From IMG/VR virus record IMGVR_UViG_3300005461_000343: a stretch of DNA of 20,000 nucleotides. One strand, 5' to 3'. The DNA is from an uncultured virus (IMG/VR IMGVR_UViG_3300005461_000343). Taxonomy: Duplodnaviria; Heunggongvirae; Uroviricota; Caudoviricetes. Made by a program: the position numbers and the translations under genes. The notes beneath the pieces are model-generated. The model was not told the DNA's origin and searched no databases. It saw only the letters and a list, made by a program, of their open reading frames with translations. Shown piece after piece: positions 597 through 18,082 of the stretch (positions within the stretch are counted from its first letter, which is position 1; the number at the start of each line of letters is the position of its first letter).

Positions 597-598
597 AT

Positions 599-1121: not shown

Positions 1122-4100
1122 CTATTCACCATTAGCTATCTCATTCATCATAGCTTTCAAATCGTATAACTCCATTTCCAATCTTTCATCATCTACCTTC
1201 TTCAAATACTCACCCATTGATTGATACAATTTGTTAAGATTATTAAACTCTACATATCCACGATATTCATCGCTCATCATAAGATCATTCAATTTTTTCT
1301 GATACTCTGCTATATCAAAACTATCGTTCTGTGGATTAGACAATTCTTTACGATATCCTCTCAATCTTTGTCCGATCTTATCCATTTCTTCCAAATTCTC
1401 ATAATAAGCGTTATCTATGGCTTTCTTTTTCGTCCGCTCATCACCACTTTTTATAAGACGGTTCCCTACAGGGATATTCCTCCAGTCAAAATCACGACTA
1501 CCCCAAGCGGTTTCAGCGGATTTGACCATCTGGGAACGCGTAGCCTCAATACCTCCGAAATAGCCGTCCAATATATGTTCTATAATGGCAGGGTTTAGGT
1601 TAACGGTACCTGTAGTGTATTTATCTCCTCCGGTTAGTTCATTGGCATATTTAGTCATTGCCAATATAGCGGGATCCACGCTCTTAAAAGCCTTTGTCCA
1701 TTCCGGCATACCCTTGTTGAAGTCGTTATCCTTATATAAAGGCAAACCTGTCCAATCCTTGTTATCTCCGGCCTCAATCAATGGCTTTACCGAGCTTGGG
1801 ACGAAAGCGGAGAATCCTCCACCTCCCTCCATCATGTCCAAAGGAAGAACCTGTGACATTTGCTCCGCTATCTTCATGGCCATCTTTTTATCGGTATACT
1901 TCTCCTTTCCGGAAACTATTCCAGAAGACATTTCTCCTAGTCCATATATAGCCCTTAACTCTATGGGCATAGGAATTGTAATCCAATTTCCTCCACCGTT
2001 ACGGAAACAGATATTATTACGTCTCACGTATTCCGGAAGATCGTAGTAATCATCATCTTCATCATCCCCAAAAGCGGCAGCGATCATAGGCATGATAGTG
2101 CCAAGTAAATAGAAAGAGGACGCTAACCCCAAGAATTTCTTGGGATTATCCTTGGCCAGCCTTCCGAAATTATACATACCTTGTACACCAGCGTTCCAAA
2201 ACACATACATGGATCTTGACAATCCAGACGTGAAAGCGCTAGCGTTACCTATCTTGGTTTGCCCCTCAGTATTCAATAATTTCGAACCCGCCCCTTTCTT
2301 ATTGAAGTTTACGGATATCTCCTTAGCGTCATAAATGGATTTATCCATGCTTCGCCCCATTTCTCTAGAAGTAAGGAACGCAGCGAACCTAGCGCAATTC
2401 TCCACGCTCTTATTGAACAAGTCCATCCATTCGCCTAGTATTTTCAAAGCCTTTCCTATAGATACCTTTTGCTTGGAGTATTGAAGTTCTTTTTGGATCG
2501 CCTTCTTCTTGGCTTCCACGTCTCTCAAATTGGTGTATCCGGTCTCTCCTCCTCTCATTACAAAATCATGGTATGCCTTATTCAAGGGATCGATCATATC
2601 CAACGTACCGTTCTCATACCCCTTGACCAGACGATACATATTGATCGGGTTTACCTTAGCGAAATTCTTATTGAACTTCCAAGCGTAAACAGGACTTTCC
2701 TTGACCCATACGGTAGTATTCGAATAAAGCGCGTCACGAAGGAAATTACTTACCATGAAATTAGGGTTACGTGTCGTGAAGTTAGCCGCCAAGTTACGGT
2801 TCAGCCATCCGGCGTATCTCTCCACGGTACCGAACCATCCTTTCGTATTATCCGGGTTTGTAAGCCCGTTCAACGCTTGAGCGGCCCTTGGATTTCCGTT
2901 TATGGTAAGCACGTATTCTTTGCCGGCTCTCTTTACGATCACTTGATGCTCCTTCAAGTCCTTTGGCAATATCTTGTAAGGTATCCCTATAGCATCCCTT
3001 GAACGCCTGACATTAGATCCTTTTTCATTGGATAGCTCCTCCATGCGTTTGTTGAAAGATTCCACGATAGACTCCACCTGTTCCGGATTGGCGTTAGATG
3101 GTATATCCGGGAAAACGGCAATCCACTCACCGGAAGCCTCGTCAAGACGAACCCACATTTCGCTTACGCTCACGAGATCCGTCTTATGATTTTGTACCAT
3201 TGTCAAAAACTTTTGCTTCATCAAGTTCCTATTCCCTTGCATGATTCCACTCTCTGCCATATTAGCGATCGTCGCTATAGGATCGTCAGCCTTGCTCTTT
3301 CGCCCAACGACAGTCTTTATAGGGGCGTTGAACGTCTGGCTTTCGGATGTAAGATAAGCGTAAACCTCATCTGCCGTAGTTTCCTCCCATCCACGCAAAG
3401 GCACATAGAACTGATACATATCGCTGATCGACTCAAACGTATTTTGGCTCATAAGCCCGCTATCCCGTTGCTTTGCCAATATAGCGTCAGTGGCTCTTTT
3501 GACAGAGGCCGATAATTCCGATGTATCATATCTTGACTCGTAATCCAATACGTATCTCCTTGCGGAATCCAGATCATACCCCGTGTTATTCTCGTTAGGA
3601 TACATGGACGTGAATCCGCTGAAATCATCAGAAAGATTAGCTCCGTATTCCTCGGCAAGCCTATCCATTTCTGATTGCTGCTCTTCCCAAGACCTACCGT
3701 TCTCACGTATCTCATTCCTTCTCCCGATATACTCGTCAAGCAGGGATTTATATGTTTCCGAGTTTTGTGACAACGCTCGTTTAACGGCCATTTCCCTGTT
3801 ACGCTCAATACCATGCTTGGTTATAAGGTAATCCCTTATCTCATCAATGGTGGATCCCATCTTTTCCAATCGTGACATCGCTTTTAAGATAGGCTCGAAA
3901 GCCGCTTTTCTATAAGCGTTGAACTCCGCTTCATTAACAGAGGAAAGGGCATTCTCGGCCATATAAGCGTTCTCATAATCCAATAGACGACTCCTCGTTG
4001 CCTTTGCCACGGCATCCTGCAATGTTTTAAGCCCTAGCATAGAATCCTGAAACGCCTCCTGAAATTGATAGGACGATGTAGATAGGGTACGCTCATATTG

Positions 4101-7100
4101 ATCTTTGGCGGAACCTACCTGTTTCTCTACTACTTGGATATCATTATCAGCGAACAATACCGACTCATTCCGCGCGTTCTCCCTAAAACGGATTGTTTTC
4201 TCTGCGAAAGCGAAATCATCCGTCTTTTCCCTTACGCTTTCTCCAACGCCTCTACCCTTGTTTTCAGATTCTGCACGTCCGATGACAGTCCGATCACCGC
4301 CGATTCCATCCCGGACACTTCCGCTCCTATCGCCTGTATCTCCTCCGTCAAGTTGGTCTCCATCGTTGTCAACTTTTCCATCAATCTCCCTTCCATTTCG
4401 GTCAATTGCGTTTTCAGTTCCGTCAATAGCGTTTTCAACTCCCCTTGGTTTGTCGATATGGTCTCGTTCACTTTCGTTTCCGTTCTCATCAACGCCATCG
4501 ATTGTCTCGAGTTCCCTTCCAGTACCTTTTGTTTCAGAAGGTTGTTTTCCTTTTTCAGGTTCAATATCTCTTGCGATTGATCCATTTTCGTTCAAATTTA
4601 TATTGTTAAGACTTAATCTATTTCTCATCACGATATCCTCGGCTACATCCATCAAGTTTCCTTGCTCCAAGTTCTTATAGCTTCTCCAGAGAATATAACG
4701 GAGGTCATTATCCGATAACTTGAAATCAAGACTAATACCTGCCTTTCTCAACATATCAAGAAAAGCGTCCTTGATCTTTTCCCATAACGAACGCTCGGCC
4801 TTGTTATCGAAACCACGTTCCGCTAATTCAGCGAGGTATTCCTCTGTAGCCTCACGCAAGTTAAGAGGATTGCCTTTAGTCCGGTCAATGATATTTTTCC
4901 GGATATCCTCGTTGGCGTTCCGATACACGTTATCAAGGAAAGTATCGAAATCGTCCCCGAATAGCTCACGTAACCCGTGATGCCCTACCACCTCATGAAG
5001 GAAAGTCCTTTGAGCGTCACCTACGGACGTGGAATTAGGTGATACTATGACTATCTCCCCGGTAGAAGTATCATACCAGCCTTTGGAATCTCTCTTACGG
5101 GCCAACATATTCTCATCCGTATCGGTTATATCGTCCACGTCATGGATTACCCTGACAGGGATATTAAACTTGTTTGACCAATCGTTGATTGAGGATTCAA
5201 TAGAACTTACATTATCCTGATTATTAGTTGTATCTACTCCCATGAATCGAAATCGAGTCTCTCCTTCCTCTTTTACCAACGTACCATCAACGTCAAGAGT
5301 TGATTCTAACTGAATATCCTCAGCTTTAGCTTTTTCAACTAATTGTCTCTGCAGATCATTAACCTCTGCCTGAGCCGCATTAAGTTCATCCTCTTTTCCC
5401 CACGGTTTCTTAACGGCTTCCTCTAATCCCGCTATCTTGTTTTCCTCTGCCTTTATTTTAGTGGCTATATCTGAGACGGATTTAGCGGGAATCCCCAACT
5501 GCCTGTCAATGCTAGCCATCAAACCCCTGCCGCCGCTAAAATCACGATTCTCAACCAGTTTTTCCTTTCCTAAATATAAACTATAGACCATCATTCCTTC
5601 ATTGAAATGCACGATTGCCTCGCCTTTTCCTCCATTGAGACTGATTTTCAGAGGAGGGGTGTTTCTGTCAAGCGTATATCTATCATAGTAATCATCAATA
5701 ATGGGCGTAAGCTCATTCGATATACCATCGCTGAAAGTATTGCCTTTAACAGTCACGGACTCAACCCCATCAGGGAAGTTCTCTTTTACGATATTGGCGT
5801 TCCTTTCCATGATATCCTTCCGGCTGTTGTATTCTTGTATCCTAAGTTTGGAGTTAGATATAGAGCCACGCATGGAAGACTTACTGTTAAGATCGCTCCT
5901 CTTGGAGTTTTGCAATTTCTTTAACTTGTTCTGTGCCACAAACAGCAGTTGGGCGGTCTTATCTCCTGATAACGTCGCCGCCATCTCACTAAATGTCATT
6001 CCAGACGGATCACTATCGTCTTGCTCCTCCATTACACGAGACGATATATCGCCTTTCATCATTTGGTTGATGAAGTTTTGTTTTATACGAAGCCTGTCAT
6101 AGGCGGTAGCGTCAAGGGTACCTTTAACGCCATATGTGACGATGTTCACCGGTTTATCCCATGTGGCGTATAAGTTTCCTTGTCGTAAGATACGACCGTT
6201 GCGTTGCTCAAAATCCATAGGCCTGATTGGAGCGTCAATATGATGCAGGGCGAATAGACGATCTTGCACGTTGACACCCACTCCCATTTTCTCCGTGCTT
6301 CCAATAAGAATGCGCACATCCCCATTACGGACCTTATCGAACAAGGCGTTTCTCCTTTCTCCCTCATAATTGCCAACGATAGCTATCTGATTAGATGGAA
6401 TACCTCCCTTGATAAGCTTTTCCTTTATATCATTGTACAAATTAAACTGAGGAACAGATAAATCGACATCGAATAAATCCATTTTTGGAGTCTCAGAAGG
6501 GGATTGATAACTATCGCAGAATATAAGTTGCGTGCCCTTGTCCTTATCGCTCTCCTTATATAATCTCAACACGTTATCGACCACCTTGTTTGTCTTGCTA
6601 TCAGGATTGTCGGGAAATGTAGGATTAAGCAAGCGAAGGTCAATCGCAGCCTGTTTAGCCTTGCTGAACACGACCAAGGGTAGTGCGCTCTTATCCTTCT
6701 TCTCTTTTCCTGTCAATTTGTTATAATCCTCTAATTCCTTGATAAGGGTTTGCATGATATCCTCCAAGTCCTCGTTCTTCTCGACAACGACATTGGTCAT
6801 CTTATTGTCTTTCAACTTAGGGATATTCTTGTCTTCCTTGAACTCCTTGACATCCTCAGTCAAGACAACGTCCGTATGGCTCCTGAACGCCTTTATAAGC
6901 TCCGGGACATTCGTATAGCTCTTGAACCTCTCGGCTATCTTAAAGTTACCGGTAGCGGTAAACTCCAATGACGGCTCAACCGTTCCAAAAGTGGTAGCGA
7001 ACTCGTCAAAGCTATTGATATTATATGCGTCTAGGATATCGGGTGCCACGAAATTCATCATAGTCCAGACCTCTGCCATTGTATTAGTGATAGGGGTACC

Positions 7101-10100
7101 GGTTGCCAGAACCACGTTTCGACCACCATTATTCTCAGATATCCATTGGGCTTTTAGCAACATACTATTAGCTCTTTGTGACGCGCTCGTATCGATACCT
7201 TTAACGTTCGACATCTTGCTTGGAAACCCGATCTTCTTATAATTATGCGCCTCGTCAATAAACAAAGCGTCAACACCCATTTGCTCAAACGTCATGACAT
7301 TATCAGTCCGCCTGTCAAGAATACGCTCCGTCTTGGCCGTGATAGTCTCCGCAGTCTTTGCCTTGCCCTTTACGTTTTTCCCTTTCTTTATACCTTCCAG
7401 AGAATCACGCATACTTTTGGCCTCCCTTTTCAATCTCTCCTGTAAAGCCTTGTCTTCTATGCGATCGATAGCTTCCTCAAAATCATCTATACGCTTTTGG
7501 ATATATGCCTTTTTCCTTTCCTCGCTATCCGGGATAAATGCCATAAATGACTGTGGGACAACGATAGCGTCAAAATCTCCGGTAGCTATAAGATTGAACA
7601 GCCTTGTCCTATTATCGGCATTACGCTCCTCCTTTGTCGGAGATAGAATCTTAGCGGAAGGATACAGTTTATAAAAGTCACGGACGAAATCCTCTAGGGT
7701 AGCGTTTTGGACAACGATCATGGGTTTCTTCGCTATACCTAGCCGTCTCATTTCCATAGCGGACGTAATCATGGTAAAGGTCTTTCCCGTACCGACTTGG
7801 TGAGCGAGTAACGTGCTCTCGGATAGACAACGTTGCACCGCCTTGCTCTGGTGATCCCTAAGCGTTATATTCTTATTAGCGTTAGGATAATGCTCAAAAA
7901 CCGGTTTGTCATACTTTTTTAGTACATAGTTGTTGTATTTATCATTATACACGTCCTCAATACGACCATGGAACATCGTTTTAGAATCAATATACTCCAC
8001 GAACTTATCGGACATGTCGGATATTTTCTCGGCAACGGCCTGTGTCTCCTGCTCGTTTACGACCCTTCTCGTTTTCTGCTTACCGTCCTCATAATATTTA
8101 ATCTCGTCATAAACCTTGGGTTTACGTTGGTTAAGAGCGGCCTTGAACACGTCTATAGCGTCCATTCTCTCAGTCTTGAATTGACCGGCTTTAGCGTAAT
8201 CGGTTATGAACGCCCTCTTATCAAGAATATACTCACCGATCTCTGGGATAAAATTAGCGTTAGCGTAAGATATACCCAGTACATTATCAGCGAAATTATT
8301 TATAAACTCAGACGGGATCCATGTAGTCCCCAGTCGATAACTTATCTCACCATAGGGTATACGTTCTGGCTGTACGGCTTCCAAGTCATCCACGTTTTTT
8401 TGAAACTCCGGATGATCTTCCAAGGCCGCCTTAGCCTCTACCAACTTATCTTTTACGTTTCCAGAGAGATATTCGCTCTTATCTATTATATTGCCGGTAA
8501 CAGGATCCCTATAAGCAATTCCCTTCTCTAGTATCTCGTTTGTCACGTTCACCTCATCCATACCCGTTATCTCCGAGATATAAGGTATATCAATATTACC
8601 TTTATATGACTTGCTTATATTGACGGCATCCAAGACATTATCCGCTTTTGTCGGTAGCTCGAATGGATAACTTACACGCTTATTCAAGATACCATCCGCT
8701 TTCGAGACTTCCCATACCATAGATTTTCCGGTCGTGGAAGGTACCCTTCTAACGGTTTCCAAAGAGAAGGGTAATCCATGCTCAACATCCTCGGCGAAAA
8801 TATCGTCCAAAGCCTTGTTCCTGTTAAGTGTCCCATATTTGGACACGAAAGCATCATATACTTTGTTTAGCCTTTTCCTCGCGGGCTCGGGGTCCACACC
8901 CTTTGTTTGCTCATCATGGATAAGATCGTATAGATTTTTCTTTATATCATTGTAATCATTTACCGCATCCGCTATTTTCCGGGTCTTACCATTATGAACG
9001 AACGTAGGATTTGCCTTAATCGGTTTTAACGACTCTCCATCTAAAACAAAGACATTGCCATTCTGGACGGTAATAGTACCATCTTTCAAAGTGGAGTCAC
9101 CCACAACCTCCGGCCCTTTAGTCTCTACAACACCTGATAGGATATTCTTTGGTAAGTTATCAATAGCGTTAAATAGCTCCTTGCTTAAATCGGCCCCGGG
9201 TTTGGCTTTCAATGTCTGGGACGCTCCACTATATAGACCTCCGCTACCAGCGTCATAAGCAGTCATCATATCACCTAACATCATATCGGGATGATTGGAG
9301 AAATACTCGTTAACCATGATAGGCTTGCTCCTTTTATCCCCGTCCTCCATATAAGTTCCTTCACCTATTTGCGTTGTAGTAGCGAACCCTATCCCATTCG
9401 AAGGTTCCCCATACTTTCTTTTACGGAATATAACGATGTCGGCCGTGACACTCGTGCCGGCCCCTTTCTGGAAAGCGTCATTAGGCAATCGAATAGCTCC
9501 GACCAGATCATAACCGTTTCCACTCACGTACTCACGGAACTTACTATCGGCCCCATCCATCGTAGCCGAGGACGTGACGAATACGCCGAGACCACCTTCT
9601 TTCAATTCCAGAAGCCCCTTTAGGATAAAATAATTATGGAGATTATAAGAGGAACCAAGTTTCTTCCTGAATTGCTTATCTAAAACCTTATCATATGGAG
9701 CGTTTTTCCCGAATGGGACGTTGGTGATAACTAAGTCTTTCGAGTTTGGAGAAAACGCTTTCTCATATCCCTGCACCTTTATATTAGCGTCAGGATATAA
9801 GGCCTTTGCCATACGACCGGACAAACTATCTATCTCGAACCCACTTATACTTGAGTTTTCAGATATAGACCTAGGCATCATACCGATTATGTTACCTATA
9901 CCCATGGCGGGTTCACTGATATTGCCGCCCTTGAATCCAAGTTTCTCCGTTATTCCCCATAAGCTTTCCACGACCTCGGACGGGGTATAATGAGAGGTTG
10001 TCGTGGAACGGACGGCACTGTCGAACTCTTCTTTACTTAATAAGGATTTTAGTTTCTCGTAATAACGTAGATACTTATCATTCCAATTTCGATCCTTAGT

Positions 10101-13100
10101 CCAATTGTTGTCACGTGCGTTGTATTTGCCTTCGTTCAAGGCTTCGGCTAAACCTCCCCATCCAACGTACCTTGACATCTTGGCTTGTTGTTCCGGGGTA
10201 GGTTTTCCTTGGCCGTCCTCTACGTCTTTCAGCGTTTCTATCGCCTCAATATTGGCTTTTAACTTGGATATATCACCGGAAGGAAGCTCAATCCCTTTCT
10301 CCGGGAAGCTGAAATTGTTTTGATTTCTTACAACAGGCCGCTTGTCGCTGTCGCTGATAGGTATTCCTCGGCCTCGCTCCGTGTCAAGCACATCACTTCC
10401 ATGCACGCCTCCACGGTCTCCTCCGCGTTCAGATCCTCGATCCTCTTCCCGTGCTTTTCTTCCCACGCCTTGATCCGCTCTTGAATTTCCTTGCTCATTG
10501 TCTTTAATATTATTAGGAGTGAATAAATCGTTACCATACAAAGGTAATGGTTTGTCCTTGTTGTCCGTTCGCTTTTTCCGGCTATTTTTTATTTTTTTCT
10601 CCGCGGCACTCGCTTGTCTGGCAATCTCAGTCTCTTTAACCACGGTCTCAGCGGAATCCATTATATCCGGGACAGGCTTGTCAAAATTAGCTACATCAAA
10701 CGAACGGACATCCTCATAAGTGGTCATATCCTTATCCCATCCGTTATCTCCTACTTCCGGCAAATCCCTCGCTCCATTGTAGAATGCTTTAAGATACGGT
10801 CGTATAGCGTCACCTAGATCATCGATCATAGCCTTTGAGTAATCTGAGAACTTACGCAATCCTTTCTCTATATGATAAACCGCCATTTCAGTACCTATCG
10901 CCAGTATCTCAGGATCAATACCCATATTCATTTGACCGCCTAGTTTCTTGCGCATGCGCTCACGGAGTTCCGCATACCGTTCATCGGTAACAAGGCGGTT
11001 ACCGCTAGGGGTAACGGTACGATCGCTCAATTTGGCTTTGCCCTTATCGTTGATATCACCAATAAGGTTTTCTACATTTACCTTTTGAGGCTCTACGACC
11101 CTGCGTGTGTCTTCAAGAGAAATAGGTTGCGCATCGCTTACGGCATCGGTATCGCCAAGAATGGTATCGGCCAACCGCCTTGCGCTTTCATCGCTACGCA
11201 TCATGAAACCTCGCTGTTCCCTGTCATACCAACCCTTTTCAGCCTTGGCTAGCTCTTTGGCGGCACGTTGCTGTTCCTTCGATAATTCATTACCGAACTT
11301 CAATAGCCACATATCAAGAACTTTTCCTTTCTTGGTAGTATATTGGGAGGAAACAATGCTATAATTATCAGAATCATTATTTTTAGAAATATCGCTTTCC
11401 TCCTGTTTAATTCCCTTATACTCATAGAAGGGCTTTGTTTTGCGAGTCGAGGAATCAATCCATTTCTTGAACCCATCCAACGTGACCCCGGTAATGTTGC
11501 CTAACCCTTGCCAACCCTCCTCATAGTTTGACAAGTAAGCGGACCTAGCGTCTTCTAAGGAAGGGAATCCCATCATAACCTTATGCTCATCGAATGAGCC
11601 ATCAGTATTCACCTGATCCACGACATACACCATGTCACTATTCATATCCGGGCCTAGGAATACGTCTATATGATCACCATCCACACTTTCAGTACCTCGA
11701 ATGTAACCGTAAGTGTTGTTCATGGTAACAGACCACTCTTTTCCATTAGCGTCCTTACCGGAACGGACGGAACCGGCGGGCTGCTCTATGGTGACATCGA
11801 AACCGTTTATCTTTATATGGCCTTTCTTGTAATTGCCGGCCTCTTTTTGCGCCTCTGTTGGATTGGTATCAACCTTTAGCTCCTCTTCGTGCAATCTCTT
11901 AGCCTCAACTATGCGCTCGGCATAGTCCAATGGGGTCTCATTCTCCTTTGGAGAAGGAGCGACAAATGGAACTAGTCCCCTTGATGAGCCTTCTTGTGTA
12001 GCTCCATCCGTGCGATCAATGTCGGGGCCAGCCGATTCTCTTCCCTCAACCTCTCCAGTTCCCCCGGTCTGATCAAGTTGTTCTCTTGGCAGTACCTCGC
12101 CGCCTCCCTTGCGTAAGCCATCGCCTCCGCTTTCGTCATTTCCTTCAATGTTTTCATTTTCTATCGGTTTATTTTGCGCTAAGATAGCGTCTATTTCATT
12201 TTGTTCGTCAATTATGGCCTGTATTTCATCCGCAATTTGCGAATCAAGCTCGCCTCGCTCCTCATCAGTCAATTGTTTCTCCGAGAAATCACGTACCATG
12301 CTTTCCTCATACGCCTCGTATTCTTCCGGGGACATATGATAATTCTCCTCGCACCACTCAGCGTAAGCGTTGTACTCGGCCTGTCTCTCACGCTCAGCGA
12401 TCGCCTCACGATTCCTCTTGACATAATCGATCAAGTCTCCACGTGTACGAGCGGAAGACAAGACCTCTATGATCGCGTCCCTTCCAGCGTTCGTATCGTT
12501 CTCATCGAAGAAGTTCGTACCATTCTCCTTATCGGCAAGCTCCAATATCTCACCCGCCCTCTCTATATTAACACCGCCTTTCTCCGGAGAGGCGAACAAG
12601 CCGAACATCCTCGCTGTCTCATTATTCCCGGCACCCGTCTCTTTCTTGTATGTGTCACGTGTCAATTTGATCGCCCCATTAGCCAGCATCATGGCCGCAA
12701 GCTCCTCTCCGCTCATAGGATCACCCATCACGGAGATCTCCTTCGCTATGACATCACCCGGCTTCTTGCTGGCCTCCTTGATATCATCATCAAGATTAGC
12801 CCAGAAATCAGCCTCGACCTTGATCGCCTCATATTCTTGTCGGGCTTTTATCAATGCGGCCTCGGCCTTATCCTCTTTTCCGATAGGGGCGTCATCGTAT
12901 ACCTCTTGCGCCTTTTCCAAGGCATCGGACGCTTTTTTAAGGCTTTCATCGAAAGATTTTCTCGTCACCTCGATCTTCCTTGGCATCTTATCGCCATATT
13001 TATCATAAAGGAAATCCAAGGTCATATCCGTACCTGACGATACGAAATCAGGCGTACCATCTTCTCGCATGACCATGGAAGGATTCTCTACATTGCTAGG

Positions 13101-15341
13101 TTGTGCTATCTGATCAATGGTTCCTTCCGCCTCAATCTCGCTCGTTGGCTTGGTGATCGCATCTTCCACAGGAGGTGCAGAGGTTATCTCGGCATCAGCA
13201 CTTGCAACACTATCATCCTCTGGCGACACCTCATTAGCTTGTTGAGAATCGTACATGGCATCTTGAAGAGCAAGAATATCCCTCTCCGTAATAGGCATAG
13301 CCGGAACTGATCCCGCCTTCGGCGCTACCTGTCCCGTCTCCTTGTCCAAAGCGGCCGGTTGAGCGATCCAATCACCGTTCTCGTCCTGTTCTTGAAGGAT
13401 AAACGCATTATCCCCGTTCCATATGACCAATCCCGGCTTGGGTAATTGCGTCTTAGGATTATGATTCATGGTCATGTCAAGCTCGGACTGGCGGGTAGCC
13501 AATAATTGATCCTCATAGGTCCGTCTCATATGACCGGCATCTTGCTCTACTATATCGCTCAACCTTTTCACCGAGACCATCCGATCCTGTCCGTTATCGG
13601 AAATAACGGCCTTATCTCCCTCTATACTCCTAACGTACACAGGTCTTTCCACATTTCCCTCGCTAAGCGTAGCCGTGGTAACGATAGACTGACCATCAGG
13701 ATTCGTGGTAACATAAGGAGTAATATTAGTGGCAACGTAAGTTTCAACCTCATTGTCTATTTCCTCGCCTATACGATCCTGCAAACCGGATATCCTGAGA
13801 TAATCAGCGTAGAAATCCTCGGCTAACGGACGGGCATCCGCATTAACCCCATCAAGAAGGCTCATCACTTGGGCCTCGCTAGCTTTATCATCCACATAGC
13901 TTTCTATCGTACTAGCCAAACCCGGAACCATTCCAGATAGGGAAAGCCTTGTCTCTTCCATCTTTTTGCTCGCCGTCCGTATATCGCCCGGATCAGTCAT
14001 ATTTCGACCTTCTTCCTCTGCCTCGGCAAACCTAGACTTAGTTAATTGAGGAGGGGTGTCAATGCCTTGATCTGCTACATTGGAATCGGTGATAGGCTGC
14101 TGAGCCTGTTTGCCTCCTATTTTATCCGCTACGTATTGCGCACCTTTAGCCAACGCTCCGGCCCCAGTAAAATAAGCGCCGCCTCCCATACCATAGACAA
14201 AACTCTGCAATACACCATCGGTCAAATCCCTTTCCGGATCCGCGCCTGTTATCTTATCCGTTATATTCTCCGCTAGCGTGGAAGATACCTCTTCGATACC
14301 TTCATTTACAGGCTCGAAAAACATACCGAATTTTTTATAGAACTCTTGCATCTTACCCATTATGCCACGTTTGATAGCCTCTTGCGCCTTTTCCTTTCCT
14401 AGCGTCTTGAATAAGGTTGACATCCAAGCCTTGGATACGCCAGCGCCCAGCATCTCAGACAAGGATTCTGCCGTACCAGTAAGAATAGCGTTAGATACCT
14501 TTGCGAACTCTCCCATGTTTGGGTTATTCTGATCGAGATCATCATATTTCTGGCTAGCCACTATTGACCCTATACCAGCGAGTCCGGCCGCTGGAGCTCC
14601 GGCCATTGTAGCGGCCATGGCCCCGATTGACATCGGAAGCGACTCTACGCCTTGCAAGGCTATATCACCTATGGCACCCATATAATTCCCTTCTTTCCAA
14701 AGATCGGTGAAATCCTTGCCATTGTATCTGTTTGACCTTGCCCGGGAAAACTCCGCATCAGCCTTGAATCTATCTGAGATATCCTTGAATGCCCCGCCAC
14801 GTGAGATCAATCCTCCAGTTGCGGATTCCAGTCCTTTGGACACCTTATCCAAGACCCCAAAGATACCGGCACCAAGATCGGCACCTCCTGCGTTAAGTTT
14901 CTGTATGGCGTCTCCAGCCCAAGTATTCATTAAAGAAGAATCCTTCTCATACTCCGTAGGAGGTGGAGGAGTCGCGGTCTCAATCTTTCCTTTTTTACGC
15001 AAGGACTCAAAATTGTAATCAGGTGAGTTCGTCCACGGATTAACGTATTCCGATTGATCCTTCATAGGCACGTCAACCTCTTGTCTTAAAGCGATAGGTG
15101 CAGGATTAACGCTTGATTGAGAAACGTAATCTTTCCTCTCTGCGGGCGAATAGCCTAGGGCACTCTCGAATTTGGAGAAATCGCCTATCTCGGAGAAATA
15201 ATCATCTTGTATCAAATAATCATAAACCATTCTCCTCTTTCCAGAGTCTTTCATCTTACCCTCAAAATTAGAGAAATCGCCAAGTCCCGTATATCCTTGG
15301 CTAATCATAGCATCATATAAATGTTTTACATTAGAATCCAT
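1122..15341 (-). CDS. Giant phage polyvalent / DarB-like virion-ejected protein (~4,739 aa)
   Basis: Uninterrupted 14.2-kb ORF with recognisable pyrophosphatase-like, N6-adenine MTase, SF2 helicase, HExxxH peptidase and LPD38-like regions. Start placed at ATG 15341 (MDSNVK), overlapping the upstream stop by 11 nt, rather than 15386. Confidence 0.9.
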   Translation of the reverse strand: MDSNVKHLYDAMISQGYTGLGDFSNFEGKMKDSGKRRMVYDYLIQDDYFSEIGDFSKFESALGYSPAERKDYVSQSSVNPAPIALRQEVDVPMKDQSEYVNPWTNSPDYNFESLRKKGKIETATPPPPTEYEKDSSLMNTWAGDAIQKLNAGGADLGAGIFGVLDKVSKGLESATGGLISRGGAFKDISDRFKADAEFSRARSNRYNGKDFTDLWKEGNYMGAIGDIALQGVESLPMSIGAMAATMAGAPAAGLAGIGSIVASQKYDDLDQNNPNMGEFAKVSNAILTGTAESLSEMLGAGVSKAWMSTLFKTLGKEKAQEAIKRGIMGKMQEFYKKFGMFFEPVNEGIEEVSSTLAENITDKITGADPERDLTDGVLQSFVYGMGGGAYFTGAGALAKGAQYVADKIGGKQAQQPITDSNVADQGIDTPPQLTKSRFAEAEEEGRNMTDPGDIRTASKKMEETRLSLSGMVPGLASTIESYVDDKASEAQVMSLLDGVNADARPLAEDFYADYLRISGLQDRIGEEIDNEVETYVATNITPYVTTNPDGQSIVTTATLSEGNVERPVYVRSIEGDKAVISDNGQDRMVSVKRLSDIVEQDAGHMRRTYEDQLLATRQSELDMTMNHNPKTQLPKPGLVIWNGDNAFILQEQDENGDWIAQPAALDKETGQVAPKAGSVPAMPITERDILALQDAMYDSQQANEVSPEDDSVASADAEITSAPPVEDAITKPTSEIEAEGTIDQIAQPSNVENPSMVMREDGTPDFVSSGTDMTLDFLYDKYGDKMPRKIEVTRKSFDESLKKASDALEKAQEVYDDAPIGKEDKAEAALIKARQEYEAIKVEADFWANLDDDIKEASKKPGDVIAKEISVMGDPMSGEELAAMMLANGAIKLTRDTYKKETGAGNNETARMFGLFASPEKGGVNIERAGEILELADKENGTNFFDENDTNAGRDAIIEVLSSARTRGDLIDYVKRNREAIAERERQAEYNAYAEWCEENYHMSPEEYEAYEESMVRDFSEKQLTDEERGELDSQIADEIQAIIDEQNEIDAILAQNKPIENENIEGNDESGGDGLRKGGGEVLPREQLDQTGGTGEVEGRESAGPDIDRTDGATQEGSSRGLVPFVAPSPKENETPLDYAERIVEAKRLHEEELKVDTNPTEAQKEAGNYKKGHIKINGFDVTIEQPAGSVRSGKDANGKEWSVTMNNTYGYIRGTESVDGDHIDVFLGPDMNSDMVYVVDQVNTDGSFDEHKVMMGFPSLEDARSAYLSNYEEGWQGLGNITGVTLDGFKKWIDSSTRKTKPFYEYKGIKQEESDISKNNDSDNYSIVSSQYTTKKGKVLDMWLLKFGNELSKEQQRAAKELAKAEKGWYDREQRGFMMRSDESARRLADTILGDTDAVSDAQPISLEDTRRVVEPQKVNVENLIGDINDKGKAKLSDRTVTPSGNRLVTDERYAELRERMRKKLGGQMNMGIDPEILAIGTEMAVYHIEKGLRKFSDYSKAMIDDLGDAIRPYLKAFYNGARDLPEVGDNGWDKDMTTYEDVRSFDVANFDKPVPDIMDSAETVVKETEIARQASAAEKKIKNSRKKRTDNKDKPLPLYGNDLFTPNNIKDNEQGNSRADQGVGRKAREEDRGSERGGDRGGVHGSDVLDTERGRGIPISDSDKRPVVRNQNNFSFPEKGIELPSGDISKLKANIEAIETLKDVEDGQGKPTPEQQAKMSRYVGWGGLAEALNEGKYNARDNNWTKDRNWNDKYLRYYEKLKSLLSKEEFDSAVRSTTTSHYTPSEVVESLWGITEKLGFKGGNISEPAMGIGNIIGMMPRSISENSSISGFEIDSLSGRMAKALYPDANIKVQGYEKAFSPNSKDLVITNVPFGKNAPYDKVLDKQFRKKLGSSYNLHNYFILKGLLELKEGGLGVFVTSSATMDGADSKFREYVSGNGYDLVGAIRLPNDAFQKGAGTSVTADIVIFRKRKYGEPSNGIGFATTTQIGEGTYMEDGDKRSKPIMVNEYFSNHPDMMLGDMMTAYDAGSGGLYSGASQTLKAKPGADLSKELFNAIDNLPKNILSGVVETKGPEVVGDSTLKDGTITVQNGNVFVLDGESLKPIKANPTFVHNGKTRKIADAVNDYNDIKKNLYDLIHDEQTKGVDPEPARKRLNKVYDAFVSKYGTLNRNKALDDIFAEDVEHGLPFSLETVRRVPSTTGKSMVWEVSKADGILNKRVSYPFELPTKADNVLDAVNISKSYKGNIDIPYISEITGMDEVNVTNEILEKGIAYRDPVTGNIIDKSEYLSGNVKDKLVEAKAALEDHPEFQKNVDDLEAVQPERIPYGEISYRLGTTWIPSEFINNFADNVLGISYANANFIPEIGEYILDKRAFITDYAKAGQFKTERMDAIDVFKAALNQRKPKVYDEIKYYEDGKQKTRRVVNEQETQAVAEKISDMSDKFVEYIDSKTMFHGRIEDVYNDKYNNYVLKKYDKPVFEHYPNANKNITLRDHQSKAVQRCLSESTLLAHQVGTGKTFTMITSAMEMRRLGIAKKPMIVVQNATLEDFVRDFYKLYPSAKILSPTKEERNADNRTRLFNLIATGDFDAIVVPQSFMAFIPDSEERKKAYIQKRIDDFEEAIDRIEDKALQERLKREAKSMRDSLEGIKKGKNVKGKAKTAETITAKTERILDRRTDNVMTFEQMGVDALFIDEAHNYKKIGFPSKMSNVKGIDTSASQRANSMLLKAQWISENNGGRNVVLATGTPITNTMAEVWTMMNFVAPDILDAYNINSFDEFATTFGTVEPSLEFTATGNFKIAERFKSYTNVPELIKAFRSHTDVVLTEDVKEFKEDKNIPKLKDNKMTNVVVEKNEDLEDIMQTLIKELEDYNKLTGKEKKDKSALPLVVFSKAKQAAIDLRLLNPTFPDNPDSKTNKVVDNVLRLYKESDKDKGTQLIFCDSYQSPSETPKMDLFDVDLSVPQFNLYNDIKEKLIKGGIPSNQIAIVGNYEGERRNALFDKVRNGDVRILIGSTEKMGVGVNVQDRLFALHHIDAPIRPMDFEQRNGRILRQGNLYATWDKPVNIVTYGVKGTLDATAYDRLRIKQNFINQMMKGDISSRVMEEQDDSDPSGMTFSEMAATLSGDKTAQLLFVAQNKLKKLQNSKRSDLNSKSSMRGSISNSKLRIQEYNSRKDIMERNANIVKENFPDGVESVTVKGNTFSDGISNELTPIIDDYYDRYTLDRNTPPLKISLNGGKGEAIVHFNEGMMVYSLYLGKEKLVENRDFSGGRGLMASIDRQLGIPAKSVSDIATKIKAEENKIAGLEEAVKKPWGKEDELNAAQAEVNDLQRQLVEKAKAEDIQLESTLDVDGTLVKEEGETRFRFMGVDTTNNQDNVSSIESSINDWSNKFNIPVRVIHDVDDITDTDENMLARKRDSKGWYDTSTGEIVIVSPNSTSVGDAQRTFLHEVVGHHGLRELFGDDFDTFLDNVYRNANEDIRKNIIDRTKGNPLNLREATEEYLAELAERGFDNKAERSLWEKIKDAFLDMLRKAGISLDFKLSDNDLRYILWRSYKNLEQGNLMDVAEDIVMRNRLSLNNINLNENGSIARDIEPEKGKQPSETKGTGRELETIDGVDENGNESERDHIDKPRGVENAIDGTENAIDRNGREIDGKVDNDGDQLDGGDTGDRSGSVRDGIGGDRTVIGRAESENKGRGVGESVREKTDDFAFAEKTIRFRENARNESVLFADNDIQVVEKQVGSAKDQYERTLSTSSYQFQEAFQDSMLGLKTLQDAVAKATRSRLLDYENAYMAENALSSVNEAEFNAYRKAAFEPILKAMSRLEKMGSTIDEIRDYLITKHGIERNREMAVKRALSQNSETYKSLLDEYIGRRNEIRENGRSWEEQQSEMDRLAEEYGANLSDDFSGFTSMYPNENNTGYDLDSARRYVLDYESRYDTSELSASVKRATDAILAKQRDSGLMSQNTFESISDMYQFYVPLRGWEETTADEVYAYLTSESQTFNAPIKTVVGRKSKADDPIATIANMAESGIMQGNRNLMKQKFLTMVQNHKTDLVSVSEMWVRLDEASGEWIAVFPDIPSNANPEQVESIVESFNKRMEELSNEKGSNVRRSRDAIGIPYKILPKDLKEHQVIVKRAGKEYVLTINGNPRAAQALNGLTNPDNTKGWFGTVERYAGWLNRNLAANFTTRNPNFMVSNFLRDALYSNTTVWVKESPVYAWKFNKNFAKVNPINMYRLVKGYENGTLDMIDPLNKAYHDFVMRGGETGYTNLRDVEAKKKAIQKELQYSKQKVSIGKALKILGEWMDLFNKSVENCARFAAFLTSREMGRSMDKSIYDAKEISVNFNKKGAGSKLLNTEGQTKIGNASAFTSGLSRSMYVFWNAGVQGMYNFGRLAKDNPKKFLGLASSFYLLGTIMPMIAAAFGDDEDDDYYDLPEYVRRNNICFRNGGGNWITIPMPIELRAIYGLGEMSSGIVSGKEKYTDKKMAMKIAEQMSQVLPLDMMEGGGGFSAFVPSSVKPLIEAGDNKDWTGLPLYKDNDFNKGMPEWTKAFKSVDPAILAMTKYANELTGGDKYTTGTVNLNPAIIEHILDGYFGGIEATRSQMVKSAETAWGSRDFDWRNIPVGNRLIKSGDERTKKKAIDNAYYENLEEMDKIGQRLRGYRKELSNPQNDSFDIAEYQKKLNDLMMSDEYRGYVEFNNLNKLYQSMGEYLKKVDDERLEMELYDLKAMMNEIANGE
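1450..2060 (-). other. LPD38-like C-terminal domain
   Basis: YYDLPEYVRRNN...WITIPMPIEL...PSSVKPLIEA..NKDWTGLPL...NPAIIEHILDGYFGG; pattern recalled for the C-termini of large polyvalent phage proteins. Confidence 0.6.
4232..4585 (-). CDS. Nested gene C (+1 frame of giant gene), 117-aa coiled-coil protein
   Basis: Long heptad pattern ending DVQNLKTRVEALEKA; no Cys, Trp, Pro, Phe, Tyr or His; upstream AACAATATAAATTTGAACGAAA-ATG (A at -3, -6, -12, -13). Confidence 0.72.
   Translation of the reverse strand: MDQSQEILNLKKENNLLKQKVLEGNSRQSMALMRTETKVNETISTNQGELKTLLTELKTQLTEMEGRLMEKLTTMETNLTEEIQAIGAEVSGMESAVIGLSSDVQNLKTRVEALEKA
4395..4436 (-). repeat. 21-nt tandem duplication (one heptad) inside nested gene C
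   Basis: GAAAACGCTATTGACGGAACT / GAAAACGCAATTGACCGAAAT, 18/21 identical. Confidence 0.8.
4593..4600 (-). promoter_or_regulatory. Putative internal promoter -7 box (TAAATTTG) for nested gene C
   Basis: Exact TAnnTTTG match only 7 nt before ATG 4585, which would give a near-leaderless mRNA; no -33 box seen. Confidence 0.3.
4690..5200 (-). other. Zincin-like metallopeptidase (MPTase of polyvalent proteins) domain
   Basis: KGWYD...TFLHEVVGHHGLR (HEVVGH at 4980-4997)...ATEEYLAELAE. Boundaries approximate. Confidence 0.7.
5900..7870 (-). other. SF2 (SNF2/DarB-type) helicase domain of the giant protein
   Basis: LRDHQ, Walker A HQVGTGKT (7779-7802), Walker B DEAH (7245-7256), ATGTP, GVGVNVQ, motif VI EQRNGRILRQGN. 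Boundaries approximate. Confidence 0.9.
9150..10270 (-). other. DarB-like N6-adenine DNA methyltransferase domain of the giant protein
   Basis: ANIEAI...YVGWGG lead-in, HYTP, SAM-binding EPAMGIGN (9891-9914), FEID, catalytic motif IV NVPF (9711-9722), RLPNDAF. Boundaries approximate. Confidence 0.85.
10328..10498 (-). CDS. Nested gene B (+1 frame of giant gene), 56-aa acidic helical protein
   Basis: MSKEIQERIKAWEEKHGKRIEDLNAEETVEACMEVMCLTRSEAEEYLSATATSGLL; upstream CCTAATAATATTAAAGACA-ATG (A at -3, -6, -12, -13); exact TACCTTTG box 40 nt upstream. Confidence 0.7.
   Translation of the reverse strand: MSKEIQERIKAWEEKHGKRIEDLNAEETVEACMEVMCLTRSEAEEYLSATATSGLL
10539..10546 (-). promoter_or_regulatory. 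Putative internal promoter -7 box (TACCTTTG) for nested gene B
   Basis: Exact TAnnTTTG match. No TTTG -33 box; a GGACAA-CAA-GGACAA direct repeat lies upstream instead. Confidence 0.45.
11430..11870 (-). other. Inorganic pyrophosphatase-like (InPase) domain of the giant protein
   Basis: PTEAQKEAGNYKKGH...TYGYIRGTESVDGDHIDVFLG...VVDQ...FDEHKVMMGF; YG and DGDxxD resemble family I PPase motifs. Boundaries approximate. Confidence 0.8.
11972..12157 (-). CDS. Nested gene A (+1 frame of giant gene), 61-aa charged helical protein
   Basis: MKTLKEMTKAEAMAYAREAARYCQENNLIRPGELERLREENR...; upstream CAAAATAAACCGATAGAAA-ATG (A at -3, -11 to -13); the host frame here is a G/E/R/D low-complexity linker. Confidence 0.6.
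   Translation of the reverse strand: MKTLKEMTKAEAMAYAREAARYCQENNLIRPGELERLREENRLAPTLIARMELHKKAHQGD
12179..12186 (-). promoter_or_regulatory. Putative internal promoter -7 box (TATCTTAG) for nested gene A
   Basis: One mismatch to TAnnTTTG, 21 nt upstream of ATG 12157; ATTG lies 22 nt further upstream. Confidence 0.35.
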
Positions 15342-17722: not shown

Positions 17723-18082
17723 ATGAATTTAACATTGCCCGAGTTCGCCTTCGTTGAAGGTTCCGGTCACGAAAAAGGCGGGGATCCTCTATATAGGAGA
17801 AATGTCATAATGCACATACGTTCTGCCAGTATCATCGAAATATTTGGCAGGGATGATGTAGTCTTAAATCCGGATGTTCTGACATTAAAGTTTAGCTATA
17901 CCAATAGATTTGGCATTAAAGAGCCAATGATTGCGGCGTTACATTATTGCGCCACGCTTGATGTCAAATATGATTCCGAAATGATAAAAAAGGAAATCAT
18001 AAAACCCGCGGCTCAATGGTATTGCGATTAGGCTGAGTGGGAAGATGAAAATATAGTAAGAGAGGAGGGATCGAATGAATGA
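17723..18082 (+). pseudogene. Hypothetical protein with a probable premature TAG at 18029-18031 (102 aa if it stops there)
   Basis: The frame continues past the TAG as AEWEDENIVREEGSNE-TGA(18082), overlapping the next start codon (ATGAATGA). Confidence 0.55.

What the first reader, a model, noticed from the sequence alone, without database searches (positions are those of the whole stretch)
4232..12186. Giant polyvalent gene hides three same-strand nested genes, one per disordered linker: a candidate gene-within-gene companion system
Seen: ORFs 12157-11972, 10498-10328 and 4585-4232 are all in the +1 frame, each ATG formed by a host AAT-G codon junction. Each spans almost exactly a G/R/E/D/N-rich low-complexity linker of the giant protein, and ordered host sequence resumes soon after each nested stop. 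The nested products read as amphipathic helical proteins, unlike the other alternate-frame ORFs. All have A at -3, -12 and -13 (two also at -6) and an upstream TAnnTTTG-like box. Established: these are Bacteroidota start-site and promoter signatures, and standard gene callers discard such overlaps. Inference: the small proteins are expressed separately from the giant and could be inhibitors, chaperones or partners of the neighbouring domains (A before the PPase-like domain, B directly before the MTase-helicase, C after the peptidase), or lysogeny-expressed cargo. Alternatively, the giant grew by reading through once-independent genes. I do not know of a description of this arrangement but cannot check the literature.
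Basis: partly seen in the sequence, partly recalled or inferred. Interest (0 to 1): 0.9.

Follow-up and report, generated by a model that had tools for sequence, protein, structure and literature searches.

The report
Three real genes nested in giant phage gene
Three stretches of a giant Bacteroides phage gene that look like floppy spacers each also encode, one base out of step, a small conserved helical protein, so the same DNA is kept readable in two frames.

Summary
A 4754-codon polyvalent-protein gene (15386..1122, minus) contains three same-strand +1-frame ORFs: A 12157..11972, B 10498..10328 and C 4585..4232. Each spans a hydrophobic-poor spacer of the giant protein.

Openness in this one sequence proves little: a synonymous shuffle gives P = 0.11 (A), 0.34 (B) and 0.0005 (C), and a junk-looking ORF also scores 0.0005.

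Relatives decide it.
- The nested ORF is intact wherever the spacer exists: C in 42/42 loci, A-like in 80/80 viral loci, B-like in 52/53 viral and 47/50 metagenome loci.
- Substitutions favour the nested frame. Nested-synonymous changes were 37/70 (C), 12/23 (A) and 45/113 (B clade), against 0.23-0.30 expected. Host-synonymous changes are not enriched.
- The host frame is also kept open: P is 0.02 or less given the nested protein.
- A and B belong to wider small-protein families and fold confidently as three helices (pLDDT 90 and 82).
- One metagenome contig carries a free-standing B-like gene.

I conclude with about 0.85 confidence that these are genuine embedded genes. Expression and function are not shown, and the promoter claim is weak. 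A travels with the upstream module, not the pyrophosphatase. This is a new variant of known embedded phage genes (Rz1 in Rz; the ShiLan hidden HNH). This scan noted similar cases before on other DNA.

The parts
1122..15386 (-). Host gene: a 4754-aa polyvalent protein. Domains: InPase at aa 1178-1310, Eco57I-like MTase around 1876-1953, SNF2/ResIII helicase at 2507-3070, an HExxH peptidase motif near aa 3440, and LPD38 at 4444-4640.
   Evidence: InPase E 1.8e-59, LPD38 E 2.1e-37, SNF2-rel_dom and ResIII are above the Pfam cut-off. Eco57I, DEAD and Helicase_C are just below it. The HExxH motif was read from the translation.
11972..12157 (-). Nested gene A: 61 aa, frame +1, predicted three-helix protein. 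The Met at residue 7 (ATG 12139..12137) is the best-conserved Met in the family and may be the real start.
10328..10498 (-). Nested gene B: 56 aa, frame +1, predicted three-helix protein, directly before the MTase module. The start at 10498 is preferred over 10537.
   Evidence: (L159 has a stop between the two ATGs).
4232..4585 (-). Nested gene C: 117 aa, frame +1, heptad-rich coiled-coil-like protein, inside a roughly 134-aa spacer that some relatives lack altogether.
   Evidence: (coiled-coil families only, all below cut-off).
11970..12158 (-). Host spacer over A (host aa 1077-1139): 85% polar or Gly, 11% hydrophobic. Its sequence is poorly conserved but never interrupted.
10326..10499 (-). 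Host spacer over B (host aa 1630-1687).
4230..4586 (-). Host spacer over C (host aa 3601-3719).
4593..4600 (-). TAAATTTG, the only exact TAnnTTTG box, at -15..-8 from the C start codon. It is a candidate only.
   Evidence: Read. The background chance is about 3% per 60-nt window in this gene. No transcript data were available.

Best explanation
A, B and C are genuine embedded (same-strand, +1-frame) protein-coding genes inside the giant polyvalent gene.

Shown:
- Each nested frame is under purifying selection and encodes a small helical protein. A and B are confidently predicted three-helix proteins from families found in many related giant genes. C is coiled-coil-like.
- The overlapping host frame shows no detectable amino-acid constraint, yet it is actively kept free of stops. 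It yields a hydrophobic-poor spacer between modules of the giant protein.

Inferred:
- The small proteins are made by internal initiation at the A-rich, Shine-Dalgarno-free start contexts typical of Bacteroidota. This would be on the giant gene's own mRNA or on a shorter transcript.
- Each works with the module it travels with. B goes with the MTase-helicase module, A with the helical module upstream of it, and C with an optional insert after the peptidase.
- On origin, the small genes are probably the older reading. The giant ORF came to read through them when neighbouring genes or modules were fused. This fits the free-standing B-like gene, and the published rule that the younger of two overlapping frames tends to be the disordered one.
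For: Intactness of the nested ORF:
- C is intact in 42/42 loci that hold the spacer (22 distinct peptides), and in further variants at 84-86% identity.
- A-like ORFs are nested in +1 of an ORF open across the whole locus in 80/80 viral loci (21 distinct peptides; loci matched the diverged query P0013 at 41-56% identity), and in 2 genome loci.
- B-like ORFs are nested in 52/53 viral loci and 47/50 metagenome loci.

Direction of selection:
- An unbiased 60-codon scan of the whole gene gave 639/459/1440 variable sites at host codon positions 1/2/3.
- The only well-populated windows with position 1 at or above position 3 are aa 1061-1140 (spacer A, 31/21/20) and aa 3601-3740 (spacer C, 24/13/12).
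- Allele tests: C nested-synonymous 37/70 against 0.30 expected (p 8e-5), host-synonymous 14/70 against 0.31. A nested-synonymous 12/23 against 0.29 (p 0.016), host-synonymous 7/23 against 0.32.
- B clade: nested-synonymous 45/113 against 0.23 (p 5e-5), host-synonymous 22/113 against 0.28, with alleles at nested codon positions 35/22/56.
- Amino-acid identity, nested against host frame: A 56/61 against 48/58, and 69/75 against 56/73. B 74% against 39%, 83% against 54%, and 62% against 35%.

The host frame is also selected. The chance that it is stop-free, given the nested protein, is 0.001 (A), 0.02 (B) and 0/5000 (C).

Families:
- The A profile finds 38 representative clusters at E <= 1e-3. 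36 of the 38 are 50-142 aa.
- The B profile finds 16 small proteins.

Folds: A pLDDT 90.3 and pTM 0.71; B pLDDT 82.3.

Autonomy: L330 carries a free-standing B-like gene, with stops in the host frame.

Unbiased clustering of 349 alternate-frame ORFs ranks A, C and B on top.
Against: - There is no evidence of transcription start, translation or peptide for any of the three.
- For A and B, openness in this genome alone is unremarkable (P 0.11 and 0.34).
- In the window's close relatives B has almost no variation, so its support comes from diverged homologues.
- C has no relative below about 82% identity and no stand-alone homologue, so its history is short.
- The allele counts treat sites as independent and use a consensus, not a tree.
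- No fold or family match suggests a function.
- The genomic context of most database family members (P0004-P0062) could not be seen.
- DNA-level chimeras that switch from host to nested frame exist (P0003, L283), which keeps a frameshift reading alive.
Confidence: 0.85

Rival explanations
1. Programmed or occasional ribosomal frameshifting. The nested frames are not initiated independently. Ribosomes translating the giant ORF slip into +1 inside the spacer and terminate at the nested stop. This gives truncated giant isoforms that end in an A, B or C domain.
For: DNA-level versions of exactly such chimeras occur. P0003 runs from the host frame into the C frame. L283 runs from a host ORF of more than 1000 aa into the B frame and ends at B's stop. 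Bacteroidota lack Shine-Dalgarno-led starts, so an internal start is hard to recognise by eye.
Against: - A +1 stop lies one or two codons before the A and C start codons. An ATG is present upstream of the conserved core in every distinct homologue.
- A free-standing B-like gene exists.
- Many database members begin exactly at the conserved Met.
- The chimeras are single contigs and may be indel errors.
- I did not search for slippery sites.
Confidence: 0.07
2. Compositional artefact. Spacers poor in Leu, Ile, Val and Met codons cannot make +1 stops (xTA-A/G, xTG-A). Long +1 ORFs with helical-looking K/E/M/L-rich products then arise mechanically and are not genes.
For: - The +1 frame has half the stops of +2 (283 against 516).
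- A and B stay open in 11% and 34% of synonymous shuffles.
- A junk-looking 121-aa +1 ORF (3814..3449) is as improbable as C by that test.
Against: - Nested-synonymous changes are in excess in all three, and host-synonymous changes are not.
- Nested identity far exceeds host identity.
- Families reach 27-31% pairwise identity with ORFs still intact.
- The AF2 folds are confident.
- The junk ORFs keep the host's position-3 bias and have only near-identical relatives.
Confidence: 0.03
3. The giant ORF is not one protein. The small genes are ordinary genes between separate large genes, and the host frame across them is open but untranslated.
For: The host-frame sequence in the spacers evolves as if unconstrained at the amino-acid level.
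Against: - The chance that the host frame stays stop-free, given the nested protein, is 0.001, 0.02 and below 0.0002. Yet it is open in 80/80, 52/53, 47/50 and 26/26 cases.
- The frame is the same before and after each spacer.
- I looked for no start codon at the head of each downstream module, so this was not tested systematically.
Confidence: 0.03
4. For C only: a selfish or mobile insertion, like the ShiLan hidden-HNH element. It is tolerated because the host reads through it as a loop, and it serves no purpose for the phage.
For: The roughly 134-aa spacer with C is present in 42 loci and absent in 16 loci of otherwise 92-100% identical peptidase context, and it is absent from Bacteroides phage BF1-TP2. 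The precedent is in PMC11855218 (abstract read).
Against: - C has no nuclease or recombinase signature. Pfam shows only coiled-coil families below cut-off.
- The DNA downstream of the junction also differs between the two forms, so this looks like module exchange rather than a clean insertion.
- I did not search for flanking repeats.
Confidence: 0.1

Closest known systems
Lambda Rz/Rz1 embedded spanin genes (PMC6139136, passages read)
   Same: A complete small gene lies in the +1 frame inside a larger same-strand phage gene. Both frames are functional. Gene callers routinely miss the inner gene. The published argument that the disordered reading is the younger one applies here too.
   Different: - The products here are cytoplasmic-looking helical proteins. 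No lipoprotein signal or membrane helix is visible in the translations.
- There are three in one 14-kb gene, and each is confined to a spacer between modules of a polyvalent protein.
- Families A and B recur across many giant genes.
- No function is known.
[quoted passage not shown]
   Same: An independent gene sits out of frame inside a phage gene. The host reads through it without stops as an extra loop. It shows presence/absence polymorphism, as C does.
   Different: No endonuclease or any mobility domain was found here. A and B are fixed companions of particular modules rather than sporadic insertions.
Polyvalent proteins of phages and conjugative elements (Iyer et al. 2017, PMC5512222; term search of the full text)
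   Same: The host gene is a textbook member, with the InPase, LPD38, MTase-helicase and Zn-peptidase combination.
   Different: A term search of that paper gave 0 occurrences of 'overlapping', 'linker', 'low-complexity' or 'frameshift'. The two uses of 'nested' concern a hairpin fold. The nested genes are therefore an unreported layer of these proteins, as far as my searches reach.
Viral overprinting in general (reviews PMC8227390 and PMC3494269; search listings only)
   Same: This is dual coding, with one ordered and one disorder-prone product.
   Different: The long host frame is the unconstrained, disorder-prone reading here, and the short embedded frame is the conserved one.

Membership tests
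Embedded same-strand overlapping gene pair (Rz/Rz1-type architecture) | A complete ATG-to-stop ORF lies inside a longer ORF on the same strand in another frame | tested here: met
   all three are in frame +1 of the 4754-codon ORF.
Embedded same-strand overlapping gene pair (Rz/Rz1-type architecture) | Both frames stay open across diverged relatives, beyond what chance would give | tested here: met
   for intactness. P(host open | nested protein) is 0.001, 0.02 and 0/5000.
Embedded same-strand overlapping gene pair (Rz/Rz1-type architecture) | Purifying selection acts on the embedded frame | tested here: met
   (excess of nested-synonymous change, p 8e-5, 0.016 and 5e-5). (nested identity above host identity).
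Embedded same-strand overlapping gene pair (Rz/Rz1-type architecture) | Both products are shown to be made | not testable with these tools
   No RNA holder was usable and no proteomics was at hand.
o-spanin (Rz1-like) | N-terminal lipoprotein signal with a lipobox Cys, with a partner i-spanin that has a membrane helix | tested here: not met
   The translations show no hydrophobic N-terminal signal in A, B or C. This was by eye; no signal-peptide program was run.
Hidden out-of-frame homing endonuclease insertion (ShiLan-like) | An HNH or other homing-endonuclease domain in the hidden frame | tested here: not met
   Pfam and PHROGs give no nuclease family for A, B or C.
Hidden out-of-frame homing endonuclease insertion (ShiLan-like) | Presence/absence polymorphism at one site of an otherwise conserved host gene | tested here: inconclusive
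   The C spacer is present in 42 loci and absent in 16. However, the downstream sequence also differs between the two forms.
Polyvalent protein (host gene) | Several unrelated enzymatic or LPD domains in one polypeptide of a phage or conjugative element | tested here: met
   (InPase, LPD38, SNF2/ResIII). The phage context includes an integrase and an XRE regulator, with 95% DNA identity in parts to Bacteroides phage BF1-TP2.
Any curated protein family for A, B or C | A match above threshold in Pfam or PHROGs | tested here: not met
   none for A or B. For C, only coiled-coil families below the cut-off. NCBIfam and PADLOC were not searched.

The most novel reading that the evidence does not exclude
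Gut Bacteroidales phage polyvalent genes are built by reading through small autonomous genes at module junctions. These genes survive as a hidden layer of embedded genes. There are at least four families: A, B and C here, and a fourth, 'E', in relatives. Each encodes a module-specific partner, made from the same mRNA, that regulates, inhibits or helps assemble its neighbouring domain. The 'linkers' of these giant proteins would then be primarily genes and only secondarily spacers.
Probability: 0.4. Interest if true: 0.85.

Novelty: new variant of a known kind. Interest (0 to 1): 0.72.

Why it matters
Standard annotation discards fully nested same-strand ORFs. These proteins are therefore missing from phage proteomes, from family databases (no Pfam or PHROG hit) and from functional screens.

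- This case gives two conserved hidden families with confident predicted folds (A, B), one lineage-specific one (C) and a fourth in relatives.
- All lie in what would be called disordered linkers of a counter-defence 'Swiss-army-knife' protein.
- It warns that low-complexity linkers in giant phage proteins may be the by-product of a second gene.
- It offers a testable route by which polyvalent proteins grow.
- It names concrete candidates for regulators of an injected MTase-helicase module in abundant human-gut phages.

Tried and rejected
Homologue searches for C:
- tblastn of C against 50,697 phage records gave no match at E <= 1.
- The big-database search gave only P0003, a host/nested frameshift chimera.
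- The ESM Atlas gave only generic coiled-coil look-alikes, score 0.88, below the 0.9 lead level.

Fold searches:
- Foldseek against PDB had no hit at E <= 1e-3 for A or B.
- VIA wide gave a best Z of 5.3 for A and 4.8 for B, which is uninformative for helical bundles.
- BFVD gave nothing for A.

Complex prediction (MTase module alignment A8 with B alignment A6): the queue was full and then the tool was declared unavailable. Nothing was folded, so the partner hypothesis is untested.

RNA evidence: no RNA holder was listed.

Other points:
- Codon-usage typicality to date the two frames: both frames are atypical (z -2.4 to -3.7), so this was not decisive.
- Promoter boxes: TAnnTTTG lies within 60 nt upstream in 8/24 distinct A upstreams and 7/27 distinct B upstreams. 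In B it stems partly from a conserved host D-L-F-G motif, so it is not convincing.
- The in-frame K-rich coiled coil in loci that lack spacer C looked like C in a forced alignment. tblastn found no significant similarity, so I dropped the idea.
- The A profile in 401 Bacteroidales species genomes gave 3 hits: two nested, and one weak in-frame match in a 541-aa ORF that I take as unrelated.
- 'Relatives' cannot be drawn for a virus record.

Literature searches for nested genes in polyvalent proteins:
- 'polyvalent protein' + 'overlapping gene': 1 paper, which by its title and abstract (a Sinorhizobium podovirus genome) looks unrelated.
- 'polyvalent protein' + phage + nested: 5 papers, of which I opened only PMC5512222 (no description there). 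The other four look unrelated by title and abstract.
- Bacteroides + prophage + 'polyvalent protein': 0 papers.
- 'nested gene' + bacteriophage + 'purifying selection' + linker: nothing on this in the 12 papers listed, of 85 found.

Full report
**What is there**

The window comes from a temperate Bacteroides-type phage.
- It has an integrase at 18999..20000 and an XRE regulator at 18075..18272.
- Parts of it are 95% identical to Bacteroides phage BF1-TP2.
- A single ORF runs from 15386 to 1122 on the minus strand and encodes 4754 aa.
- Pfam finds InPase (aa 1178-1310, E 1.8e-59), LPD38 (aa 4444-4640, E 2.1e-37) and SNF2/ResIII. Eco57I-type methylase and Helicase_C fall just below cut-off.
- An HExxH peptidase motif is visible near aa 3440.
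- This is a polyvalent protein in the sense of Iyer et al. 2017 (PMC5512222).

| ORF | Coordinates | Length | Host aa covered |
|---|---|---|---|
| A | 12157..11972 | 61 aa | 1077-1139 |
| B | 10498..10328 | 56 aa | 1630-1687 |
| C | 4585..4232 | 117 aa | 3601-3719 |

- All are in frame +1, and each ATG spans a host AAT-G junction.
- Each lies over a host stretch that is 81-85% polar or Gly and 11-15% hydrophobic, against 29% hydrophobic gene-wide.

**Is it more than chance in this one sequence?**

Only partly.
- A +1 stop needs a host xTA or xTG codon (Leu, Ile, Val, Met) followed by a purine-initial codon. Hydrophobic-poor spacers are therefore mechanically stop-poor in +1.
- The gene has 283 stops in +1 against 516 in +2, and 11 open +1 stretches of 50 codons or more.
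- Shuffling synonymous codons (2000 trials) leaves A stop-free in 11% of trials, B in 34% and C in 0.05%.
- Single-genome statistics therefore cannot decide the matter.

**Comparative evidence for C**

A peptidase-domain query fetched 63 viral loci.
- 42 hold the spacer, 16 lack all of its roughly 134 aa, as does BF1-TP2, and the rest are truncated or unanchored.
- The +1 ORF is intact in 42 of 42. It is 117 aa, with one 124-aa form that carries a 7-residue in-register duplication.
- It is also intact in three further variants at 84-86% identity.
- Among 26 distinct full-length sequences there are 70 allele changes, falling 34/20/16 on host codon positions 1/2/3.
- 37 of the 70 are synonymous in the nested frame, against 0.30 expected from all possible non-stop mutations at the observed transition bias (p 8e-5).
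- Only 14 of the 70 are synonymous in the host frame, against 0.31 expected.
- Typical cases are CTG to TTG or TTA. These are silent for a nested Leu but change Thr to Ile, Pro to Leu or Glu to Lys in the host.

**An unbiased scan of the whole gene**

I ran blastn of the giant gene against 80 loci fetched with the InPase domain.
- Gene-wide, variable sites at host codon positions 1/2/3 number 639/459/1440.
- In 60-codon windows, the only well-populated places where position 1 reaches position 3 are aa 1061-1140 (28/21/21 and 31/21/20; spacer A) and aa 3601-3740 (up to 24/13/12; spacer C).
- A few windows with 8-17 variable sites also qualify: aa 1341, 2061, 2821-2841, 3301 and 3901. I regard these as noise.
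- The B region has 0-2 variable sites per window and says nothing here.
- The 3814..3449 ORF region keeps the host's position-3 bias in most of its windows.

**Comparative evidence for A**

- By my count from the printed groups, 59 of the 80 loci have a polar spacer directly before InPase. Every one has an intact +1 ORF.
- This includes loci whose InPase is only 70-73% identical. There the nested protein keeps a core of the form A..FC.E.NL..PGEL ... RMEL..K.HPE while the host spacer is barely alignable.
- The other 21 loci have an ordered domain at that place and many +1 stops.
- In gap-free close pairs the nested frame is better conserved than the host frame: 56/61 against 48/58, and 69/75 against 56/73. 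Differences by nested codon position are 6/4/7 and 4/5/15.
- The allele test on 8 distinct sequences of the window's own A type gives nested-synonymous 12/23 against 0.29 expected (p 0.016). Host-synonymous is 7/23 against 0.32.
- A profile of five A sequences, searched against 1.84 billion representative proteins, finds 38 clusters at E <= 1e-3. 36 of them are small proteins of 50-142 aa with the same core.
- None of the 38 is a giant protein carrying the motif in frame. The two long hits are weak, repeat-rich matches.
- A pattern search with a sub-alignment fetched 80 viral loci with 21 distinct peptides. The loci matched the diverged query P0013 at 41-56% identity.
- In 80 of 80 the A-like ORF sits in +1 of an ORF that is open across the whole 6-kb locus. 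The same holds in a Parabacteroides MAG and one further genome.
- The host module upstream of A is the same, or a diverged version, in nearly all distinct loci (...WCEENYH.SPE.YEAYEE...). The downstream domain is InPase-like in only 7 of 21. A therefore belongs with the upstream module.

**Comparative evidence for B**

- 36 near-identical loci keep the ORF from the 10498-type ATG. One of them (L159) has a stop between the upstream ATG and this one, which favours 10498 as the start.
- The most distant InPase locus, L142, has a 33%-identical +1 ORF in an R/G/E-rich spacer directly before its MTase module.
- A three-sequence profile finds 16 small proteins of 46-92 aa, with core R[MI]..WE...G.K[LV]..L..EE.V...I[LM].LT..EAE.YL.
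- A pattern search finds B-like ORFs nested in +1, always just before the MTase N-terminus, in 52 of 53 viral loci and 47 of 50 metagenome loci.
- With each frame aligned optimally for itself, nested identity far exceeds host identity: 74% against 39%, 83% against 54%, and 62% against 35%.
- In 13 distinct cores of one clade, alleles fall 35/22/56 on nested codon positions. Nested-synonymous is 45/113 against 0.23 expected (p 5e-5). Host-synonymous is 22/113 against 0.28.

**The exceptions are informative**

- L283 and P0003 are chimeras in which the host frame runs into the nested frame. They are indel variants or assembly errors.
- L336 and L337 keep the B-like ORF while the host frame is cut by stops on both sides.
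- L330 is a 57% G+C contig with a TonB-dependent receptor and an ECF-type sigma factor.
  - It carries a free-standing B-like gene with stops in the would-be host frame.
  - About 480 nt downstream it carries a free-standing member of a fourth family, 'E'.
  - tblastx finds similarity to the giant genes only at these two small ORFs.

**The host frame is selected too**

I kept each nested protein and resampled its synonymous codons. The host frame then stays stop-free in 0.1% (A), 2% (B) and 0 of 5000 (C) trials. Yet it is open in essentially every locus. This is true dual coding. It is not a set of separate genes misread as one ORF.

**What the products look like**

- AlphaFold2 with family alignments gives A a three-helix fold (pLDDT 90.3, pTM 0.71).
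- B also gets three helices (pLDDT 82.3).
- C matches only coiled-coil families, all below cut-off.
- No solved or predicted viral structure matches A or B meaningfully.

**A check on selectivity**

I clustered all 349 distinct same-strand alternate-frame ORFs of 50 aa or more found inside giant ORFs of every locus fetched.

| Cluster | Distinct sequences | Minimum pairwise identity |
|---|---|---|
| A | 33 | 31% |
| C | 24 | 82% |
| B | 20 | 27% |

- All three lie over host stretches that are 10-14% hydrophobic.
- Most of the other listed clusters have only close relatives (minimum identity 67% or more) over normally hydrophobic host sequence.
- Three listed clusters are more diverged: family E (5 distinct, 35%), not present in this window, and two at 41% and 46% over ordered, normally hydrophobic host sequence, which I read as carried along by host conservation.

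**How it probably works**

Shown: there are two conserved readings of the same DNA. The short one is constrained as a protein. The long one is constrained only to stay open.

Inferred: independent initiation.
- All three starts have A at -3, -12 and -13, against 7% of control +1 ATGs.
- These are the published positive determinants in a Bacteroidetes ribosome-profiling study (PMC6847099, section 15 read).
- An exact promoter-like TAnnTTTG exists only before C. Across relatives the motif is not convincing.
- Translation from the giant gene's own mRNA is therefore the simplest reading.

On function, I commit to module-specific accessory proteins, at roughly 0.3-0.4. B would go with the MTase-helicase module and A with the upstream helical module. 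The basis is strict co-occurrence. Nothing here tests binding.

This matches the rule, cited in PMC6139136, that the younger overlapping frame tends to be disorder-prone.

**Comparison with what is known**

- Embedded +1 genes in phages are classical, as in Rz1 inside Rz. Gene callers are known to miss them (PMC6139136).
- A host gene reading through an out-of-frame inserted gene as a loop was described for the ShiLan hidden HNH in an actinophage methylase gene (PMC11855218, abstract).
- My four literature searches found no description of nested genes in polyvalent-protein spacers. I judged most hits from listings only, and opened only the founding polyvalent paper, which has none of the relevant terms.
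- Earlier notes of this scan report the same kind of arrangement in other phage genomes. None shares sequence with A or B.

I therefore rate this a new variant of a known kind. It is unusually well supported by comparative data, and expression and function remain open.

Noticed in passing
L131:9204, L144:7929, L269:712, L270:142, L275:178 (starts, + strand); L330:2937-3095: A fourth nested family, 'E', has the core M..KEAM.WLAI.QQAKKG..EA...LRQE.E.R....P...EELK.I. It lies in +1 of giant ORFs, over spacers that are 4-10% hydrophobic, 2.3-2.8 kb upstream of B in L269 and L275. It is not present in this window. It is free-standing in L330.
   Followed up: partly
L330:1-3209: A metagenome contig (57% G+C) carries a TonB-dependent receptor C-terminus, an ECF-type sigma factor, then free-standing B-like (2247-2456) and E-like (2937-3095) genes. 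Only these two small ORFs resemble the giant genes.
   Followed up: partly
P0003; L283; P0016: Single records in which the reading switches frame by an indel. P0003 goes from host to C, and L283 from host to B, ending at B's stop. P0016 starts as an A-like protein and continues in another frame. They may be natural variants or assembly errors.
   Followed up: no
window 3449-3814 (-): A 121-aa +1 ORF is as improbable as C under synonymous shuffling (P 0.0005). It is junk-looking, lies over ordered host sequence, has a mostly position-3-biased variation pattern, and has only relatives at 91% identity or more. It warns against single-genome ORF-length tests.
   Followed up: yes
window 4230-4650 (-) versus L042, L051 and BF1-TP2 (L001): The whole C spacer is present or absent among phages whose peptidase domain is 92-100% identical. 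Forms without it continue into different downstream sequence, with an in-frame K-rich coiled coil in L042-type loci.
   Followed up: partly
P0019, P0028: P0019 (142 aa) is a tandem duplication of the A-like domain. P0028 (447 aa) has several tandem repeats that weakly resemble the N-terminal half of A (E 6e-6).
   Followed up: no
window 1-1075 (+): A low-G+C block (28% against about 44% elsewhere) holds two small + strand ORFs (147-596 and 599-1075) without any PHROG match. It is possibly a moron-like cargo region next to the end of the giant gene.
   Followed up: no
L336:1588-1791, L337:1560-1763: A B-like ORF stays intact while the surrounding host frame is cut by stops on both sides (88-codon host span). 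It is possibly a decayed giant gene in which only the nested gene survives.
   Followed up: no
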